Origin: Naegleria gruberi
Lineage: Eukaryota
NCBI GenBank assembly: GCA_000004985.1
Contig: GG738895.1
Length of the DNA stretch: 64,000 nucleotides
Direction: 5' to 3' (one strand)
Below are positions 1 to 11,091 of this stretch, one piece after another. A program made the position numbers and the translations under genes. Under the pieces are notes generated by a model that did not search any database, was not told where the DNA came from, and saw only the letters and a program-made list of their open reading frames with translations. Position 1 is the stretch's first letter; every line of letters begins with the position of its first letter.

Positions 1-431
1 ACCCAACCCAAACCCAAACCCAAACCCAAACCCAAACCCAAACCCAAACCCAAACCCAAACCCAAACCCAAACCCAAACCCAAACCCAAACCCAAACCCA
101 AACCCAAACCCAAACCCAAACCCAAACCCAAACCCAAACCCAAACCCAAACCCAAACCCAAACCCAAACCCAAACCCAAACCCAAACCCAAACCCAAACC
201 CAAACCCAAACCCAAACCCAAACCCAAACCCAAACCCAAACCCAAACCCAAACCCAAACCCAAACCCAAACCCAAACCCAAACCCAAACCCAAACCCAAA
301 CCCAAACCCAAACCCAAACCCAAACCCAAACCCAAACCCAAACCCAAACCCAAACCCAAACCCAAACCCAAACCCAAACCCAAACCCAAACCCAAACCCA
401 AACCCAAACCCAAACCCAAACCCAAACCCAC
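1..431. repeat. Telomeric repeat array (CCCAAA)n, ~70 units (G-strand TTTGGG); window starts at a chromosome end
   Basis: Perfect 6-nt periodicity CCCAAA from base 1 to ~431 with one CCCAA variant at the very start. The C-rich strand reads 5'->3' on +, as expected for a left chromosome end. It passes abruptly into unique AT-rich DNA at 432. Confidence 0.9.
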
Positions 432-1229: not shown

Positions 1230-1526
1230 NNNNNNNNNNNNNNNNNNNNNNNNNNNNNNNNNNNNNNNNNNNNNNNNNNNNNNNNNNNNNNNNNNNNNNN
1301 NNNNNNNNNNNNNNNNNNNNNNNNNNNNNNNNNNNNNNNNNNNNNNNNNNNNNNNNNNNNNNNNNNNNNNNNNNNNNNNNNNNNNNNNNNNNNNNNNNNN
1401 NNNNNNNNNNNNNNNNNNNNNNNNNNNNNNNNNNNNNNNNNNNNNNNNNNNNNNNNNNNNNNNNNNNNNNNNNNNNNNNNNNNNNNNNNNNNNNNNNNNN
1501 NNNNNNNNNNNNNNNNNNNNNNNNNN
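1230..1526. other. Assembly gap (297 N)
   Basis: Uninterrupted run of n characters. All ORF-track entries spanning it (1149..1616) are artefacts. Confidence 0.95.
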
Positions 1527-3208: not shown

Positions 3209-3660
3209 TCATTCAATATTTGAATCATTTGCGAGAAGGAAGGTCTTTCCATTGGATTTGGATGCAAGTTCACAATACTTGAGCACACTCTTCATACTTT
3301 TCTCCTTCGATTGGTTTTCATGCACTGGATATAGTAATAACCATTCATTCAATTCATTTTCGTTTTCAAATGGAATACTTGGTCGTTCCCCTTTTAAAAC
3401 ATTTGAGATGATATCAACAATTGATCTATCCGATTGATACTTGGCTTTCTCTGATTTACAATAAGGAGAAACTTCGAAAAATAATTCCCACATTATAATA
3501 GCAAAGCTATACACGTCAACTTTGGGAGCCCTTTGAGATTTATCAGTATTACTATTACTCGTATTATCTGATCGAATTGTTTCCTATTTAAATAACAGGT
3601 AAGCTGAGAGGTAAGCTCAATCCGAAATCAACGATTTTACATGAATCAATCTCCTTCTTC
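3209..3660 (-). pseudogene. Protein kinase catalytic-domain remnant (subdomains VII-XI), apparently disrupted
   Basis: Minus-strand translation gives ...KIVDFGLS... (DFG motif) and ...APKVDVYSFAIIMWELF...PY...VLKGERPSIP (APE, subdomain IX-XI, TKL-like). Reading frame is broken between DFG and APE without a convincing GT..AG intron. No glycine loop or HRD region is found upstream. Confidence 0.4.
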
Positions 3661-4076: not shown

Positions 4077-4961
4077 TTATCTGACATGGATTGTATAACC
4101 AGTTTTTACGTCATTGCTGTAATGATTTTGGATTGTAACATTTACCATAGATAAATCATCTACAATATAGAAAGAAATAGGTGAACTTATTTTTCCTGAA
4201 ATGGCTTGAGATTGAGCATTCCCATCAAAATCAACATTCATACTCTCAACCTTTTGTGCACTTCGTACTAAGAGAGAACCACCTGATCTTTTGAAAGATG
4301 AATCCTCAGAAAATTGAAACACAAATACAATTGCAAGTTTTGTACATTCTTCAATATGTATATTTCGTATCTTGATTTCTTTAACACTGATGGTATCCAC
4401 CATTAAGTTAGATTTCATAAACTGCCCATTTTGAAATATGATAAGATTAGCTTCATAGATTGGTAAATTTACAGATGCATCTTCCATGAAATTGTTTTGA
4501 AAAACAATCCGATTATTTCCTCTCAGCTCTATATAGCATCCTTGTAATAACTTGCCAACGAGTTTACAATCTTTGAATAATGTTAGATATGTTGCTGTAG
4601 TTAAAATGTTAGAACTGATTAGTTCACTACTTTCAACAATAAAATTAACTTTTGTAGGCTTAGTGTTGAAATCTACATCATTCATATGCTGAAATAGTGA
4701 GGACGTCAATTAGCAATTAGCATAACCAAAAGAGGTACTTATAATTTTTGAAAATATTCTAAAATTCACAATTTCAATATTATTAAATATTATCCAAGCA
4801 ACATCTGTTCTGTCTTTCAAATACATGTATGTGTTGCCCTTCTGGAAAGTCAAACCTCTCTTTTCAGAACTTTGAAACATGAAATAGTATGAAATTAATG
4901 AATTTGATGGTAAATCAAAATCTCCGTATGTGAATGAAAGATTACCTTCAATATTAATCAC
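4077..4961 (-). CDS. Hypothetical protein (two abutting ORFs 4077-4709 and 4710-4961, frameshift or tiny intron)
   Basis: Adjacent same-strand ORFs of 210 and 83 aa with ordinary coding composition. No recognisable motif. Confidence 0.3.
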
Positions 4962-5892: not shown

Positions 5893-7665
5893 ATGCGTTC
5901 AAAATCTCTCTTGATCGCTATCTTCTTGCTTTTGTGTTTGATCTTCACAGCTCAATCTTCATTTGCTGCTGAAGAACAATCAAACCCTCTCAAACAAGAA
6001 CTTTCCCGCCTTTTAAAATTAAAAAAACAACTCAAAACCAAGTGGAACCCTAGCCGTTATTTGAATGAGCGTATTTTGCGTATTGCCAAGAGATTTAGAA
6101 TTGCCATTCCTCAACGTTGCAAGAGACGTGTTATTATTGATGATGAAGTAGTTGATACTATTAGAAAATTGGCCGAGTGTGATCGTGATACTAAACCTGA
6201 ATTGCCAACCAATCCTTCCACTCCATCAAATCCATCTACACCAACAACACCATCTAATCCAAGTACTCCAACAAATCCTTCCACTCCAACAACACCACAA
6301 GAACCTACAAATCCTTCTGTTCCTACTGTTCCTTCCACTCCAACAACACCATCAACACCATCCAATCCAAGTACTCCAACCACTCCATCAAATCCAACTA
6401 CTCCATCTACTCCAACTCTTCCAAAATGTCCAAAGAGACTCACTTGTAGATTGTTGTGTAAGAATGGATATTATTACGATTCAAATGGATGTGTTGATAC
6501 TTGTCGTTGTAAGCCATCTTCTTGTCCACAATTCAGATGTTTGAGAGCTTGTCCATATGGATATAAGGTTAATGCTCGTGGATGTACCACTTGTGATTGT
6601 AAGCCAAAACCTTCCACTCCAACTAAACCAACTAAACCAACCTTTGAATGTCCAAAGCGTAAATGTGCTCGTTTGTGTGCCCATGGCTATAAGACTGATA
6701 GAAGAGGATGTCAAACTTGTTCTTGTGTTAGAAAGCCAGTCAGACCAACACCAGTTAGACCAACTCCTGTTAGACCAACACCAGTCAGACCAACACCTCC
6801 AGTTAGACCACCAGTTATTGTCACACCAACACCTGTTAGACCAACTCCAGTTGTCACACCAACACCTGTCAGACCAACACCTCCTCCAGTGAGACCACCA
6901 GTTGTTGTCAGACCACCAGTTGTCAGACCAAGACGTAGAAGAAGACGTTTCTTCGGAAGAGGTAGAGGTGACCCACATTACAGTTTGTTGCATGCCAGCA
7001 ATGCTGCCCATAAGGATGTACTTTTTAATGGATTGGGTGATTATATTTTAGCTGAAACTGTTGATAAGGAATTTATTGCTCATGTCAGAATTGGCAAGTG
7101 GCATAAGAAGGCTACTGTTAATATTGGTGCTGCCATCAAGCTTGGAACTGATGTTATTGAATTCGATTCTAAGGATGGTCAATTCTACCTTAATAAGGAA
7201 GAAGCTGAATTCAAGATTGGAAAGAAATATGAACTTGAAGGAGGTTCTCTTATTAGAAAGAGTGAAAATAGATTTATTATCAAGTCCGTTGATGGAGTTG
7301 AATTCTTTGGTGAAAGATTCACTCTCCACGATGGAAAGAGTTACATGGATGTCCAAGTTGATTCTCCAAAGGATGTTGAATTCAGACGTGGTTTGATTAT
7401 CAATGGTAAGGGCAGACAAGGAAAGGGTCTTTTCAGAGTTTTAAAGGCTGCTAAGGTTAATAAGAACGCTGTTGCTGTTGTTGAAATTCCAAAGTGGGCC
7501 AAGAAGGCTTGTGCTAAGCAAGGATTGACTGGAAAGAAACTCAAGGATTGTGCCTATGATATTACCGTTACAGGTAAGGAATTCGCCAAGGAAATTGCCA
7601 AGGATGAAGCCAAGTTTGCCAAGAAGAGTAGAAAGGTTTTAAAGGCTGTTTCTAAGAAGAAATAA
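5893..7665 (+). CDS. Secreted modular protein with a signal peptide, mucin-like Pro/Thr/Ser repeats, four antistasin-like 6-Cys modules, (PVRPT)n repeats, an Arg6 tract, a GDPH-motif (VWD-like) domain and a Lys-rich tail
   Basis: ATG at 5893. N-terminus MRSKSLLIAIFLLLCLIFTAQSSFA is a classic signal peptide. PSTPTTPSNPSTP repeats follow. Four copies of C-x5-C-x3-C-x2-G-x3-D-x2-GC-x3-C-x-C (e.g. CPKRLTCRLLCKNGYYYDSNGCVDTCRC) fit the antistasin-like spacing. PVRPTPVRPTP repeats, RRRRRR and then RGDPHYSLL... follow, GDPH being the VWD/RGM autocleavage motif. Single exon, TAA stop. Confidence 0.7.
   Translation: MRSKSLLIAIFLLLCLIFTAQSSFAAEEQSNPLKQELSRLLKLKKQLKTKWNPSRYLNERILRIAKRFRIAIPQRCKRRVIIDDEVVDTIRKLAECDRDTKPELPTNPSTPSNPSTPTTPSNPSTPTNPSTPTTPQEPTNPSVPTVPSTPTTPSTPSNPSTPTTPSNPTTPSTPTLPKCPKRLTCRLLCKNGYYYDSNGCVDTCRCKPSSCPQFRCLRACPYGYKVNARGCTTCDCKPKPSTPTKPTKPTFECPKRKCARLCAHGYKTDRRGCQTCSCVRKPVRPTPVRPTPVRPTPVRPTPPVRPPVIVTPTPVRPTPVVTPTPVRPTPPPVRPPVVVRPPVVRPRRRRRRFFGRGRGDPHYSLLHASNAAHKDVLFNGLGDYILAETVDKEFIAHVRIGKWHKKATVNIGAAIKLGTDVIEFDSKDGQFYLNKEEAEFKIGKKYELEGGSLIRKSENRFIIKSVDGVEFFGERFTLHDGKSYMDVQVDSPKDVEFRRGLIINGKGRQGKGLFRVLKAAKVNKNAVAVVEIPKWAKKACAKQGLTGKKLKDCAYDITVTGKEFAKEIAKDEAKFAKKSRKVLKAVSKKK
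6208..6420 (+). repeat. Coding tandem repeats (Pro/Thr/Ser mucin-like, ~18-21 nt units)
   Basis: Repeated ccatc(t/a)a(a/c)tcc(a/t)...actcca units encoding PSNPSTPTTP. They also generate the spurious antisense and alternate-frame ORFs 6111..6443, 6152..6544 and 6481..7011. Confidence 0.6.
6727..6948 (+). repeat. Coding tandem repeats (PVRPT 15-nt units) ending in an Arg6 tract
   Basis: ccagt(c/t)agaccaaca(cct) is repeated about 10 times and is followed by agacgtagaagaagacgt. Confidence 0.6.
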
Positions 7666-7816: not shown

Positions 7817-8776
7817 ATGAATTACAAACTTAAACTGATACTAATTGTTATGGTTGTCTCGCTGGTGACTCTATTCGCTGAGAGAAATCTTCTGTTTTCA
7901 ATCCTTAACCATTATCCACATAAGGAAACAGAAGCAATTACAAACGAAATCCATGTCGTAACGATTTATGAAAATTCAGCAAAGGTACAATCTCCTCTTC
8001 TTGCATTTCTTCCGTGTCCTTCTCAGTCTCATTCTCAATCCCTAACCATTCATCTATTCATTAATTCCAATCACACAATTGAGTGTTTACAAAACAGATT
8101 AAGCTCTTGCCAAAGGTTAACTCTCAAATTTTACAGTTCATCAGAATTGAGCATCAATACTCAATCCACTCATTACAGTGCCTCATCTGCCAAAAAGAAA
8201 CTCAAATTATTACAATTTTTTCAACACAAAATTCAACGATTCTTATATTTGGACGCTGACACATTTTTAGTGCACGGATTTGAAGGATTAATTCAGGTGT
8301 GGAAGAATTTCTTATTATTCGAAAAGGATGAATTTATTGGAATGAGTAAAGAATTGAGTAATTGGTACAAGTATGATTCGTATAATTCTGGAGTCATCCT
8401 AATAGATATTCGAAAATCATTACAATATCCTTGGAAACAAATATTGGAAGAAACTATCCAAGATGTTGGAGTAACCCAACTTGCAGATCAGGATATTTTC
8501 AATGTAATTGATAGAAAAACAAGAGGAAAGTGGTTCCATCGAATAGATTGTGGACTAAACTTGCAACATGCTGGATGGAAAGAGTGTTCTACAAGTTGTG
8601 TAAGAATCATTCATTTCAATGCCATGCCAAATATTCAAAATACCACCAATCTTGCTTCCATGCTGAACTATGCCAGAAAAACCTATCAGTCAATTGGTTG
8701 TGAAACGACTATTTTCCCACATGATAATTTGTTTAATTGGATTGGTAATTCAAACATTAGCCTTATCTGTAAATAA
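7817..8776 (+). CDS. Glycosyltransferase family 8-like protein, type II membrane topology
   Basis: N-terminal signal anchor (LKLILIVMVVSLVTLF). Carries the GT8 hallmarks YLDADTFLV (DxD), YNSGVILIDI and DQDIFNVI. Confidence 0.55.
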   Translation: MNYKLKLILIVMVVSLVTLFAERNLLFSILNHYPHKETEAITNEIHVVTIYENSAKVQSPLLAFLPCPSQSHSQSLTIHLFINSNHTIECLQNRLSSCQRLTLKFYSSSELSINTQSTHYSASSAKKKLKLLQFFQHKIQRFLYLDADTFLVHGFEGLIQVWKNFLLFEKDEFIGMSKELSNWYKYDSYNSGVILIDIRKSLQYPWKQILEETIQDVGVTQLADQDIFNVIDRKTRGKWFHRIDCGLNLQHAGWKECSTSCVRIIHFNAMPNIQNTTNLASMLNYARKTYQSIGCETTIFPHDNLFNWIGNSNISLICK

Positions 8777-10005: not shown

Positions 10006-11091
10006 TTATCTCACATACATATTTGCTTTTGGTATTACCGAATATGAACCACTAAATGTCCATTGCTTGAAAGTTGAACCTGCACATAGATTATACACAT
10101 GAGAATTCTGATTAAGAGGACCACCTCCAAAAAGACAATAATCTAAACCTGTTCCATCACATCCATTGTTTTCTATATGACCCAGTGAAAGATCTGTCAA
10201 TTTAGTGCTCAATGGGACACAAATTCCCGGAGCTGTCCAAACAGAAATTAAAGAAACAGCAAAACCTGTTCCTGTTGCATCTTTCCACATGATCTCAGTT
10301 GATGCACTTCTCAACATGGCCCATTTATCATCTCTCATTGAAGCACCATCACTGGTTACATTGACTATATCAACATAATATGGAGCTAGTTGAACATTTC
10401 TTGATGAAACAAGTGCCCAACCACCTCCATTAGCAGATTGTTCACAATAGACCACAAATTCTGATTTGGTAGCATCAGGTTTAATCCAATACAAACCACT
10501 CACTGCAGAATCATTGAATTGTTTCTTATATTCAGCACAGGATTTCAAAATGCCACTTCCAAATGTGAAAATACTATTGGTGGAAGAGAGAGTTTGCACA
10601 TCACAATTAGATCCTGTCCAACCACTCTTACATGTGGAACATGTGGCTCCATCCCAATTTCCTGAACAAACTGAACATTGACCTGCAGATGAGCATACAG
10701 AACATTTGACATCACATGAAGATTTTACAATATTACAATCAGGACCATCAAATGCATTACATGTAGAATTGAAAATTTGAATTTCTTCTGAAAGAGTAGC
10801 ATAAGCTCTCTTTACCTTACTTAATTGAGTTTGACGAATTGAGAGCGATGTGAAATTTGCCTTACTCAATACTGCAATTACCTTTTCCAATTGAGAGACG
10901 GTTAATTCTAATGCAGATGCCTCTTTCTTTAATGAATTTAACCAATCTCTGACATTACCAGAAGTAGTGGAAGTGCTATTGGTTGTTGCCGCAGCACAAG
11001 ACCATCCACCACCGTTGAGAGATGGAAAGGCATGTAACAATAGACAACATACCACTAAGCACATCATCAACAATCCGTTGGCTGTAGACAT
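10006..11091 (-). CDS. Secreted fibrinogen-related-domain (FReD) protein with an EGF-like Cys-rich segment
   Basis: Signal peptide, coiled-coil segment and Cys-rich CSVCSSAGQCSVCSGNWDGATCSTCKSGWTGSNC. Then ...GLYWIKPD...FVVYCEQSANGGGWALVS..., matching the fibrinogen C-terminal signature (F.VYCDM...GGGWTV). Confidence 0.6.
   Translation of the reverse strand: MSTANGLLMMCLVVCCLLLHAFPSLNGGGWSCAAATTNSTSTTSGNVRDWLNSLKKEASALELTVSQLEKVIAVLSKANFTSLSIRQTQLSKVKRAYATLSEEIQIFNSTCNAFDGPDCNIVKSSCDVKCSVCSSAGQCSVCSGNWDGATCSTCKSGWTGSNCDVQTLSSTNSIFTFGSGILKSCAEYKKQFNDSAVSGLYWIKPDATKSEFVVYCEQSANGGGWALVSSRNVQLAPYYVDIVNVTSDGASMRDDKWAMLRSASTEIMWKDATGTGFAVSLISVWTAPGICVPLSTKLTDLSLGHIENNGCDGTGLDYCLFGGGPLNQNSHVYNLCAGSTFKQWTFSGSYSVIPKANMYVR

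What the first reader, a model, noticed from the sequence alone, without database searches (positions are those of the whole stretch)
5893..7665. Unusual secreted mosaic protein combining mucin, antistasin-like, PVRPT, poly-Arg and GDPH/VWD-like modules
This single-exon gene strings together a signal peptide, an O-glycosylation-type PTS region, four 6-Cys modules with antistasin spacing (C-x5-C-x3-C-x2-G-x3-D-x2-GC-x3-C-x-C), a rigid (PVRPT)n stalk, an Arg6 dibasic-protease-like site and a C-terminal domain opening with RGDPHY. GDPH is the acid-labile autocleavage motif of VWD domains in mucins and RGM. This combination is not a described architecture. It suggests a processed, surface-exposed or secreted protease-inhibitor/adhesion molecule encoded at a subtelomere.
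Basis: partly seen in the sequence, partly recalled or inferred. Interest (0 to 1): 0.65.

Follow-up and report, generated by a model that had tools for sequence, protein, structure and literature searches.

The report
Naegleria secreted antistasin–mucin–VWD mosaic protein
This is a real, conserved gene of the amoeba Naegleria gruberi for a secreted protein that joins a mucin-like stretch, three leech-type protease-inhibitor modules and a probably self-cleaving von Willebrand D domain; its parts are already known in Naegleria, and only this combination and the loss of the cysteine pair expected to bridge the cleavage site are new.

Summary
The ORF at 5893-7665 (+, 590 aa) is real. It matches Naegleria gruberi XP_002672706.1 over the stored ~400 residues and in length. 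It lies about 5.5 kb from a (TTTGGG)n telomere.

**Confirmed:** signal peptide, PTS region, (PVRPT)n stalk, Arg6 and RGDPHY. There are three antistasin modules, not four (Pfam PF02822, E=7e-19).

**Conservation:** orthologues occur in N. clarki, two uncultivated Naegleria species, N. fowleri, Willaertia and two uncultured sources. Antistasin copy number varies from 0 to at least 8.

**Prior knowledge:** antistasin-like proteins of Naegleria were published in 2025, and this protein is in their Table S3. VWD domains in Naegleria were noted in 2016.

**Probably undescribed:** the PTS–antistasin–VWD architecture, and the concerted loss in this orthogroup of the Cys pair that matches, by position, the one bridging the GD|PH cut in FCGBP.

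**Best reading:** a secreted, O-glycosylated, multi-headed serine-protease inhibitor. Its C-terminal VWD self-cleaves at D360|P361 and is held only non-covalently. Both the inhibition and the cleavage are inferred, not shown.

Interest is modest.

The parts
5893..7665 (+). Complete single-exon CDS of 590 aa plus stop. Matches N. gruberi XP_002672706.1.
   Evidence: Matches the Table S3 entry of PMC12482156 over the ~400 residues stored there, with the same length of 590.
5893..5967 (+). Signal peptide (residues 1-25, MRSKSLLIAIFLLLCLIFTAQSSFA).
   Evidence: It is the only hydrophobic segment. SignalP 6 scores it YES in Table S3. Orthologues have equivalent leaders. N. fowleri has one if an upstream in-frame ATG is used.
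5968..6192 (+). Conserved basic N-terminal domain (residues 26-100) of unknown function. It has 2 Cys (C76, C96) and invariant WNP and CKR motifs.
   Evidence: Alignment A3 of 7 orthologues from Naegleria to Willaertia. No Pfam hit.
6193..6423 (+). PTS (mucin-like) region, residues 101-177, built of (N/T)PSTPTTPS-type repeats.
   Evidence: 36 S/T and 26 P in 77 aa, pI 4.5. TRF periods 9/18/27.
6427..6510 (+). Antistasin-like module 1 (residues 179-206). Candidate P1 is Arg186.
   Evidence: Pfam PF02822, regex match. P1 is assigned by transferring the module-2 alignment to antistasin Arg34. P1 Arg is conserved in N. clarki, PL0398 and PL0403.
6523..6600 (+). Antistasin-like module 2 (residues 211-236). 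Candidate P1 is Leu217.
   Evidence: Aligned Cys-for-Cys with both domains of leech antistasin 1SKZ, with L217 opposite Arg34. Pfam.
6649..6726 (+). Antistasin-like module 3 (residues 253-278). Candidate P1 is Ala259.
   Evidence: Best Pfam stretch, 253-278 against model positions 1-26 of 26. Regex match.
6727..6930 (+). Pro/Arg/Val/Thr-rich stalk (residues 279-346) with six PVRPT units. pI is 12 and there are no acidic residues.
   Evidence: Orthologues have Arg/Pro-rich linkers with different repeat units.
6931..6948 (+). Arg6 run (residues 347-352).
   Evidence: Present as R5-R6 in the N. gruberi-clade orthologues only and not conserved as a run elsewhere.
6946..6966 (+). Predicted strand β1 of the VWD domain (R352-R358, RFFGRGR). 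It lies upstream of the cleavage motif.
   Evidence: AF2 model m7a657da26bd9, strand at model residues 21-27, block pLDDT 85.
6967..6978 (+). GDPH motif (residues 359-362). The predicted autocleavage bond is D360|P361, and the motif is preceded by an invariant Arg (giving RGD).
   Evidence: G, D, P and H are invariant in 16 aligned heterolobosean VWD domains. The motif lies between β1 and β2, as in FCGBP D10, where both D and H are required for cleavage (PMC10880436).
6967..7407 (+). VWD β-sandwich (residues 359-505). It contains no cysteine. Ile502 occupies the position of the paralogues' 'GLC' Cys.
7489..7608 (+). Helical C8-like segment (residues 533-572) with the only two Cys of the C-terminal fragment (C540, C553).
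7609..7662 (+). Lys-rich basic C-terminal tail (residues 573-590). It carries no membrane anchor signal.
1..430 (.). Context: telomere repeat array (CCCAAA)n, i.e. TTTGGG on the other strand.
   Evidence: TTTGGG was reported as the candidate N. gruberi telomere repeat (PMC3622300).

Best explanation
The gene encodes a secreted, strongly basic mosaic glycoprotein of Naegleria gruberi (mature pI about 10).

Order of parts: signal peptide, a conserved N-terminal domain of unknown function, a PTS stretch that is probably O-glycosylated, three antistasin-type disulfide-knotted modules, a rigid Pro/Arg-rich stalk, and a C-terminal VWD domain with a short C8-like helical cap.

Proposed mechanism (inferred, not shown):
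- The antistasin modules act as canonical tight-binding inhibitors of extracellular serine proteases. Their P1 residues differ (Arg186, Leu217, Ala259), so they would cover trypsin-like and chymotrypsin/elastase-like enzymes.
- The VWD domain cleaves its own Asp360-Pro361 bond in the secretory pathway, as GDPH VWD domains of FCGBP, MUC2, MUC5AC and RGM do.
- This orthogroup has lost both cysteines that, by position, match the pair bridging the two fragments in FCGBP. The 37-kDa inhibitor/mucin fragment would therefore be held to the 26-kDa VWD fragment only by strand β1 (RFFGRGR). It could be released, or handed over, after secretion.
For: Shown by tools:
- The ORF and all motifs are present.
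- Pfam Antistasin scores E=7e-19 in 3 stretches.
- Leech antistasin 1SKZ is the only PDB sequence hit with E below 1 (E=0.0022). All six Cys of module 2 align, and reactive-site Arg34 falls opposite the residue after Cys2.
- A profile search against PDB hits FCGBP at E=4.6e-12. Three of 5 orthologue domains hit Pfam VWD, and 8 of 10 related full-length hits scanned (6 named heterolobosean, 4 unnamed) pass its cut-off.
- GDPH is invariant in 16 aligned domains and is predicted to lie between β1 and β2.
- Heterolobosean paralogues have C-x3-GDPH and a GLC motif. The four orthologues aligned here have G/R and GLI at those positions. N. clarki (x2) and PL0398 also lack the upstream Cys, and PL0398 shows GLI.
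- Cys parity: 20 Cys in the mature N-fragment (2 plus 18) and 2 in the C-fragment, so none is left over.
- There is no TM or GPI signal.
- P1 Arg and P1 Leu are conserved in the N. gruberi-clade orthologues.

From papers:
- In FCGBP the D and H of GDPH are required for cleavage, and the released peptide carries β1 (PMC10880436).
- The FCGBP fragments are held by C472-C611, and C472 has the same C-x3-GDPH spacing (PMC8267560).
- Antistasin-like proteins of Naegleria are mostly predicted to be secreted (PMC12482156).
Against: - There is no experimental evidence of expression, secretion, glycosylation, inhibition or cleavage.
- The modules have 6 Cys, whereas leech inhibitor domains have 10. Whether they inhibit is unknown, and the 2025 paper also leaves their function open.
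- The N. fowleri orthologue and one metagenomic orthologue lack antistasin modules entirely. Inhibition therefore cannot be the conserved core function of the orthogroup.
- The window copy has a 6-residue insertion straight after GDPHYSLL and gives no Pfam VWD hit of its own. Model confidence is lower there (block pLDDT 72).
- Cys-less GDPH VWD domains are common: 81 of 248 motifs among the profile hits. Some such proteins stay associated non-covalently, so release is not a necessary consequence of cleavage.
Confidence: 0.5

Rival explanations
1. The protein is a structural or adhesive matrix protein of the glycocalyx, substrate-adhesion layer or cyst wall. On this reading the antistasin-like modules are only disulfide-knotted spacers. 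The PTS and Pro/Arg stalk form an extended glycosylated rod. The VWD domain, cleaved or not, serves for binding or oligomerisation and stays attached.
For: - The orthogroup keeps the N-domain, the low-complexity rod and the VWD, while antistasin copy number varies from 0 to at least 8. The conserved function therefore lies in the N-domain and the VWD.
- The protein is strongly basic and Pro-rich.
- RGD is invariant before PH in the orthogroup.
- In FCGBP, GDPH cleavage stabilises the domain rather than releasing anything (PMC10880436).
Against: - The candidate P1 residues Arg and Leu and the full 6-Cys pattern are conserved among the N. gruberi-clade orthologues. That suggests constraint on the inhibitory loop rather than a mere spacer role.
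- There are no known oligomerisation cysteines, no anchor and no wall-binding domain.
Confidence: 0.28
2. [quoted passage not shown] GD|PH cleavage would leave a reactive C-terminal Asp anhydride on the mucin/antistasin fragment. That Asp would then be esterified or amidated onto a glycan or protein of the amoeba surface, cyst wall or prey, and the disulfide-free VWD fragment would be discarded as a propeptide.
For: - The VWD is at the extreme C-terminus with GDPH at its start and no inter-fragment disulfide. This layout matches ITIH precursors, whose GDPH cleavage couples the new C-terminal Asp to chondroitin sulfate on the protease inhibitor bikunin (PMC8267560).
- The ITIH C-terminal domain is predicted to be VWD-like, with GDPH between the first two strands (PMC10880436).
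Against: - In FCGBP the anhydride is simply hydrolysed and no cross-links were found.
- No ITI_HC_C, VIT or VWA similarity was detected.
- No acceptor molecule is known in Naegleria.
Confidence: 0.12
3. Processing is enzymatic rather than autocatalytic. A kexin/furin-type convertase would cut after Arg6 (RRRRRR|FF) and/or after the conserved CKRR in the N-domain, and the GDPH motif would be a fold signature only.
For: - The Arg6 run lies 6 residues upstream of GDPH.
- CKR[RK] is invariant from Naegleria to Willaertia.
Against: - The poly-Arg run is not conserved outside the N. gruberi clade. Orthologues simply have Arg/Pro-rich linkers.
- R352 is predicted to be inside strand β1.
- G, D, P and H are invariant in all 16 aligned domains, which fits selection on the motif itself.
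Confidence: 0.08
4. The ORF is a non-functional subtelomeric relic, or a chance or mis-assembled reading frame.
For: - It is the first intact gene after the telomere. Only short or stop-interrupted ORFs and an assembly gap lie between them.
Against: - The 590-aa frame is intact.
- Orthologues with 54-83% identity in the two globular domains occur in at least six other taxa or sources.
- The repeat regions stay in frame.
- It matches the RefSeq model XP_002672706.1.
Confidence: 0.02

Closest known systems
Naegleria/Willaertia antistasin-like domain proteins (PMC12482156, mSphere 2025; orthogroup OG0001630)
   Same: This is the same protein: XP_002672706.1 is listed in their Table S3 with a signal peptide. 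That family comprises secreted proteins carrying 1-11 six-Cys antistasin-like repeats.
   Different: The paper counts 2 domains, whereas Pfam finds 3 stretches here. Its main text never mentions VWD or von Willebrand, and no VWD-type annotation was found in its supplements. The C-terminal GDPH VWD, the PTS region and the conserved N-domain are therefore not described.
Leech antistasin/hirustasin-type serine-protease inhibitors (Pfam PF02822; PDB 1SKZ)
   Same: The six-Cys spacing matches, as does the G-x-x-x-D/N-x-x-GC core. The reactive-site position directly after Cys2 also matches (Arg34 of antistasin), and module 1 has Arg there.
   Different: The leech domains have 10 Cys, with an extra N-terminal sub-domain, and are small stand-alone inhibitors. 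Here there are 6-Cys modules embedded in a 590-aa mosaic, with P1 = R, L and A. Activity is untested.
GDPH-type VWD domains of FCGBP, MUC2, MUC5AC and RGM
   Different: The cysteines at the positions of the FCGBP C472-C611 inter-fragment pair are absent here (C-x3-GDPH changed to G/R, GLC changed to GLI). There is no full C8, TIL or E module. It is a single VWD at the extreme C-terminus. The window copy scores below Pfam reporting.
[quoted passage not shown]
   Same: It works alike on paper. A C-terminal VWD-like domain starts with GDPH, is not disulfide-linked to the rest and acts as a removable propeptide. The system is tied to a protease inhibitor.
   Different: No sequence similarity was detected, and there are no VIT or VWA domains. 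In ITIH the inhibitor (bikunin) is a separate chain, and coupling is to chondroitin sulfate. None of this has been shown in Naegleria.
Heterolobosean VWFD-domain proteins (N. gruberi D2VXA1; N. fowleri FDP41_012263 and FDP41_005632; N. lovaniensis C9374_012355; Willaertia ABK040_003113)
   Same: They are paralogous VWD plus helical-cap domains (E from 1e-50 to 1e-26 with the orthogroup profile). They share GDPH, 'G.GDY' and the two helical-cap Cys. VWD in Naegleria was noted in PMC4948705.
   Different: The paralogues keep the Cys at C-x3-GDPH and the GLC Cys. No Pfam domain other than VWD passes its cut-off in the ones scanned, so no antistasin modules. Their GDPH is not preceded by Arg, so they have no RGD.
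Metazoan gel-forming mucins
   Same: A PTS region and a VWD domain occur in one secreted protein, together with small Cys-rich protease-inhibitor-like modules (TIL in mucins, antistasin here).
   Different: There is no VWD-C8-TIL triplet, no CysD, no VWC or CK dimerisation knots and no inter-chain cysteines. The PTS region is only 77 aa. This is an analogue, not a member.

Membership tests
Antistasin family (Pfam PF02822 / IPR004094) | HMM score above the curated gathering threshold | tested here: met
   68.4 bits against a cut-off of 21.2, E=7.2e-19, 3 stretches.
Antistasin family (Pfam PF02822 / IPR004094) | Six-Cys spacing C-x4-5-C-x3-C-x10-C-x2-3-C-x-C with an internal GC | tested here: met
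   Three modules at 179-206, 211-236 and 253-278. Cys-for-Cys alignment to 1SKZ.
Antistasin family (Pfam PF02822 / IPR004094) | Full leech-type inhibitor domain with 10 Cys (an extra N-terminal sub-domain) | tested here: not met
   Each module has only 6 Cys. PMC12482156 notes the same for the Naegleria proteins.
Antistasin family (Pfam PF02822 / IPR004094) | Basic P1 residue at the reactive site (Arg34 of antistasin, directly after Cys2) | tested here: inconclusive
   Module 1 has Arg186, module 2 has Leu217 and module 3 has Ala259. In the L002 orthologue 5 of 8 modules have Lys.
Antistasin family (Pfam PF02822 / IPR004094) | Serine-protease inhibitory activity | not testable with these tools
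   This needs recombinant protein and enzyme assays.
VWD domain (Pfam PF00094) | HMM score above the gathering threshold | tested here: not met
   The window copy gives no VWD hit at E up to 10. Three of 5 orthologue domains hit (best E=1.8e-6). Eight of 10 related full-length hits pass the 22.9-bit cut-off. The orthogroup profile hits FCGBP VWD domains at E=4.6e-12.
VWD domain (Pfam PF00094) | VWD β-sandwich fold | tested here: met
VWD domain (Pfam PF00094) | GDPH motif between strands β1 and β2, with Asp and His present | tested here: met
   GDPH is at 359-362, β1 at 352-358 and β2 starts at 362 in the model. G, D, P and H are invariant in A2. The requirement for D and H is from PMC10880436.
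VWD domain (Pfam PF00094) | Conserved cysteines at the positions of the FCGBP inter-fragment pair (C-x3-GDPH and GLC) | tested here: not met
   Both are replaced (G/R and Ile502) in the four orthologues aligned and are present in the paralogues. The FCGBP pair is C472-C611 (PMC8267560). Its downstream partner is equated with the GLC Cys by spacing only.
VWD domain (Pfam PF00094) | Autocatalytic Asp-Pro cleavage | not testable with these tools
   This needs SDS-PAGE and MS of the expressed protein and of D360A and H362N mutants.
Mucin/VWF D assembly (VWD-C8-TIL-E) | Full C8, TIL and E modules after the VWD | tested here: not met
Gel-forming mucins | A long PTS domain plus N-terminal VWD-C8-TIL repeats and C-terminal VWC/CK knots | tested here: not met
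   The PTS region is present but only 77 aa. There is a single C-terminal VWD and no CK or VWC.
Repulsive guidance molecules (RGM) | RGM_N and RGM_C domains with a GPI anchor | tested here: not met
[quoted passage not shown] | VIT and VWA domains plus the ITI_HC_C propeptide | tested here: not met
   None of these Pfam families is hit. The resemblance is in layout and proposed mechanism only.

The most novel reading that the evidence does not exclude
The disulfide-free, C-terminal GDPH VWD is a self-removing 'activation' propeptide. Its autocleavage would generate a C-terminal Asp anhydride on the ...GRGD end of the mucin/antistasin chain. That end would then be covalently grafted onto glycans or proteins of the amoeba's surface, cyst wall or prey. 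This would be a protist counterpart of ITIH-to-chondroitin-sulfate coupling. It would mean that VWD-mediated protein-glycan ligation, and a PTS+VWD 'proto-mucin' design, exist outside animals.
Probability: 0.12. Interest if true: 0.7.

Novelty: new variant of a known kind. Interest (0 to 1): 0.38.

Why it matters
Both antistasin-like and VWD domains are overwhelmingly animal domains. Their scattered presence in Heterolobosea was noted separately in 2016 and 2025.

This protein shows the two fused in one conserved secreted protein, together with a mucin-type PTS stretch. Its VWD keeps the self-cleavage motif but has lost the cysteine pair expected to bridge the cut.

If cleavage occurs, it would be a simple, genetically tractable non-animal model for GDPH autoprocessing, and for how such processing can release or couple a cargo. 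It would also give a functional lead for the unexplained antistasin-like proteins of Naegleria, a genus that includes the pathogen N. fowleri. The N. fowleri orthologue has lost the inhibitor modules.

If cleavage does not occur, this is simply one more lineage-specific domain shuffle in an amoeba secretome.

Tried and rejected
- Exact look-ups of the window protein and two neighbouring ORFs in the contig collection found nothing. The organism was identified instead through Table S3 of PMC12482156 and the TTTGGG telomere.
- The first full-length homology search was swamped by low-complexity Pro/Thr hits. Only 3 real homologues came out.
- A search with the N-domain alone found no candidates.
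- phmmer of the single C-domain against PDB found nothing. A profile was needed.
- The first AF2 model, built from 5 sequences, was poor at the GDPH end (pLDDT below 50 for residues 1-31). It was replaced by a 16-sequence model.
- The afdb50 fold library was unavailable.
- tblastn and regex scans found no paralogue, further antistasin module or VWD in the 64-kb window. A second GDPH at about 60074 has no VWD context.
- There is no synteny with the N. fowleri, L002 or L003 loci.
- The idea that loss of the upstream Cys is unique was rejected: 81 of 248 GDPH motifs in related hits also lack it.
- A kinase-like motif seen by eye at 3209-3514 (-) is not supported by Pfam.
- A literature search for the RefSeq accession gave only an unrelated nematode paper.
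Full report
**1. What is in the sequence**

The window starts with about 430 bp of (CCCAAA)n. This is the complement of TTTGGG, the candidate telomere repeat reported for Naegleria gruberi (PMC3622300).

The ORF named in the finding is exactly at 5893..7665 on the + strand and encodes 590 aa. Table S3 of PMC12482156 lists N. gruberi XP_002672706.1 with the same length. Its sequence matches over the roughly 400 residues stored there. The window is therefore a chromosome end of N. gruberi, and the gene is an annotated 'predicted protein'.

Between the telomere and the gene there is only an assembly gap (1230-1526) and short or stop-interrupted ORFs.

**2. Check of the observation**

Confirmed:
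- A signal-type hydrophobic leader, which is the only hydrophobic segment in the protein. SignalP 6 scores it YES in the published table.
- A PTS stretch at residues 101-177, with 36 S/T and 26 P in 77 aa, encoded by 9/18/27-bp repeats.
- Six exact PVRPT units in a 67-aa Pro/Arg stalk with no acidic residue.
- RRRRRR at 347-352 and GDPH at 359-362.

Corrected:
- There are three 6-Cys modules, not four (179-206, 211-236, 253-278).

The protein has no second hydrophobic segment and no GPI-type tail. It is predicted to be soluble and secreted, and it is very basic, with a mature pI of about 10.

**3. The Cys modules are antistasin-type**

Pfam Antistasin (PF02822) scores 68.4 bits against a cut-off of 21.2 (E=7e-19) in three stretches. 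The only PDB sequence hit with E below 1 is leech antistasin 1SKZ. Module 2 aligns Cys-for-Cys to both of its domains.

In that alignment the reactive-site Arg34 of antistasin falls on the residue just after the second Cys. That Arg34 is the P1 residue is established knowledge about antistasin, not something tested here. By this rule the candidate P1 residues are Arg186, Leu217 and Ala259.

P1 Arg (module 1) and P1 Leu (module 2) are the same in N. clarki, Naegleria sp. PL0398 and PL0403.

The modules have 6 Cys, not the 10 of leech inhibitor domains. The 2025 paper makes the same point for all Naegleria members.

**4. The C-terminal domain is a VWD domain**

The window copy alone gives no Pfam VWD hit. 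This is probably because of a 6-residue insertion (HASNAA) right after GDPHYSLL that the orthologues lack.

Other evidence is strong:
- Three of 5 orthologue domains hit Pfam VWD.
- A profile of the orthologues hits the repeated VWD domains of FCGBP in PDB at E=4.6e-12.
- The same profile finds 448 proteins at E up to 1e-3 among 1.84 billion representatives.
- Of the ten full-length matches scanned, six are named N. gruberi, N. fowleri, N. lovaniensis or Willaertia proteins, and four of those six are labelled 'VWFD domain-containing' by a source. Eight of the ten pass the Pfam VWD cut-off.

The helical cap carrying C540 and C553 therefore probably corresponds to the start of a C8 module.

**5. 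Position of GDPH and the missing disulfide**

In the model, residues R352-R358 (RFFGRGR) form strand β1. GDPH follows, and β2 starts at H362. This is the arrangement described for FCGBP D10. There, cleavage releases 'the peptide containing the first β-strand', and D→A/N or H→N mutations block cleavage (PMC10880436). G, D, P and H are invariant in all 16 aligned domains.

In FCGBP the two fragments stay joined by a disulfide, C472-C611. C472 lies in ...C-RAQ-GD, which is C-x3-GDPH spacing (PMC8267560). The heterolobosean paralogues have this upstream Cys and a 'GLC' Cys at the end of the sandwich, whose spacing from the Asp (142 residues here against 134 in FCGBP) makes it the likely partner. 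The four orthologues of the window protein aligned here have replaced both, with G/R and with GLI (Ile502 here). N. clarki (two copies) and PL0398 also lack the upstream Cys, and PL0398 shows GLI.

The Cys counts are even on both sides of the cut: 20 in the mature N-fragment and 2 in the C-fragment. No cysteine is therefore left to bridge them. This last step is inference.

The loss is not unique among VWD-like domains. Of 248 GDPH motifs among the profile hits, 81 lack a nearby upstream Cys.

**6. Conservation and variation**

The layout is signal peptide, N-domain, low-complexity rod, Arg-rich segment, GDPH-VWD. It is found in:
- N. clarki (two genes), Naegleria sp. PL0398 and PL0403;
- N. 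fowleri FDP41_011818;
- a JGI metagenome contig (P0002, L003);
- a Logan contig (L002).

Willaertia wmagna_018089 shares the N-domain and one antistasin domain; its stored sequence is cut before any VWD could be seen.

Identity to the window protein is 54-64% in the VWD and 31-83% in the leader plus N-domain. WNP, C76-K-R and C96 are invariant in the N-domain.

Antistasin copy number varies:
- 3 in N. gruberi and PL0398;
- 2 called plus a disrupted third in N. clarki 001341;
- 3 visible (2 called) in N. clarki 004291;
- 5 visible in PL0403;
- at least 8 in L002 (contig-truncated);
- 1 in Willaertia;
- 0 in N. fowleri and P0002, with no module in any frame.

The N. fowleri gene sits about 290 kb inside an 859-kb contig and has different neighbours. 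The family is therefore not bound to subtelomeres. No paralogue lies in the window.

**7. How it most likely works**

Shown: domain identities, fold, motif position, Cys pattern, conservation and absence of an anchor.

Inferred:
- (a) The PTS stretch is O-glycosylated.
- (b) The antistasin modules inhibit extracellular serine proteases of different specificity (P1 = R, L, A).
- (c) The VWD cuts its own D360-P361 bond during secretion.
- (d) Without a bridging disulfide, the 37-kDa N-fragment is held only by β1 and can dissociate.

I put about 0.5 on this package.

The main rival (0.28) is a structural or adhesive role in which the modules are spacers. It is favoured by the fact that orthologues without any antistasin module keep everything else.

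A more novel variant (0.12) is ITIH-like coupling. In ITIH precursors a GDPH cleavage at the start of a C-terminal VWD-like propeptide produces an Asp anhydride, which is esterified to chondroitin sulfate on bikunin. The layout here is the same: a C-terminal domain, GDPH at its start, and no disulfide.

Convertase cleavage at Arg6 is less likely (0.08). The run is not conserved outside the N. gruberi clade, and its last Arg lies in β1.

A pseudogene or artefact is essentially excluded by the conservation.

**8. Comparison with what is known, and novelty**

[quoted passage not shown] The domain is otherwise almost restricted to animals and their closest protist relatives. This very protein is in their table.
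- The 2025 paper never mentions VWD in its main text, and no VWD-type annotation was found in its supplements.
- Within the searched library I found no description of the PTS + antistasin + GDPH-VWD architecture, of the orthogroup-specific loss of the Cys pair, or of the invariant RGD before PH.

This is therefore a new variant of known kinds, not a new kind.

By membership it is:
- an antistasin-family member by HMM and Cys pattern, but a 6-Cys form;
- a VWD by fold and profile, although the window copy itself fails the Pfam threshold and lacks the two cysteines at the inter-fragment positions;
- not a gel-forming mucin, an RGM or an ITIH.

**9. Verdict**

It overstated novelty and surface exposure.

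Interest is modest (0.38). The useful new point is a testable prediction: self-cleavage at D360|P361 with non-covalently held fragments, in a tractable non-animal organism.

Noticed in passing
window 1-430: A perfect (CCCAAA)n array at the very start of the window. It is the complement of TTTGGG, the candidate N. gruberi telomere repeat proposed from genome data in PMC3622300. The window therefore supports that repeat as a true chromosome end.
   Followed up: partly
window 1230-1526: A run of N (assembly gap) lies inside the AT-rich subtelomeric spacer between the telomere and the first gene.
   Followed up: no
window 7817-8776 (+): The gene directly downstream encodes a family-8 glycosyltransferase (Pfam GT8, E=4.6e-6) with an N-terminal hydrophobic anchor. 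It sits next to a PTS-rich secreted protein. The adjacency is suggestive of a glycosylation link, but this was not tested, and the pairing is not conserved in the N. fowleri, L002 or L003 loci.
   Followed up: partly
window 10006-11091 (-): A 361-aa ORF gives a partial Fibrinogen_C hit (E=4.3e-6, covering only model positions 3-49 of 221). This is another typically animal extracellular domain near the chromosome end.
   Followed up: no
window 4077-4961 (-): Two adjacent same-frame ORFs (210 aa and 83 aa) are separated by a single stop codon and have no Pfam hit. This may be a decaying subtelomeric gene.
   Followed up: partly
window 3209-3514 (-): A 101-aa ORF contains a motif that looks by eye like protein-kinase subdomain IX (YSFAIIMWELF). 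Pfam gives no kinase hit, so this is unconfirmed.
   Followed up: partly
window 6961-6978 (residues 357-362) and orthologues (L001, L002, L003; Table S3 of PMC12482156): Arg-Gly-Asp directly precedes Pro-His in all seven members of the orthogroup seen, but in none of the Cys-containing heterolobosean paralogues. Loss of the Cys pair and gain of an RGD tripeptide therefore go together. This is unexplained.
   Followed up: partly
L002:2-1765 (+), Logan SRR29240419 contig: An uncultured Naegleria-like orthologue, truncated by the contig end, carries at least eight tandem antistasin-like modules before the same Pro-rich stalk and GRGRGDPHY VWD. The automatic gene call (P0029) kept only the last 281 aa.
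   Followed up: yes
L001:9840-10000 (N. fowleri VFQX01000012): The N. fowleri gene model FDP41_011818 starts at MASSTT with no leader. An in-frame upstream ATG (MMMKQRSSSLIRGGWAVTFILASLLVICCIPAII...) would add a signal peptide, so the deposited start codon is probably wrong. The two deposited N. fowleri versions (P0001 and P0003) also differ by a frameshifted stretch in the Arg/Pro linker.
   Followed up: partly
window 6109-6126 (residues 73-78) and alignment A3: The motif P-x-R-C-K-R is invariant (followed by R or K) in the N-terminal domain from Naegleria to Willaertia. It could be a dibasic processing site or a structural element. This was not tested.
   Followed up: no
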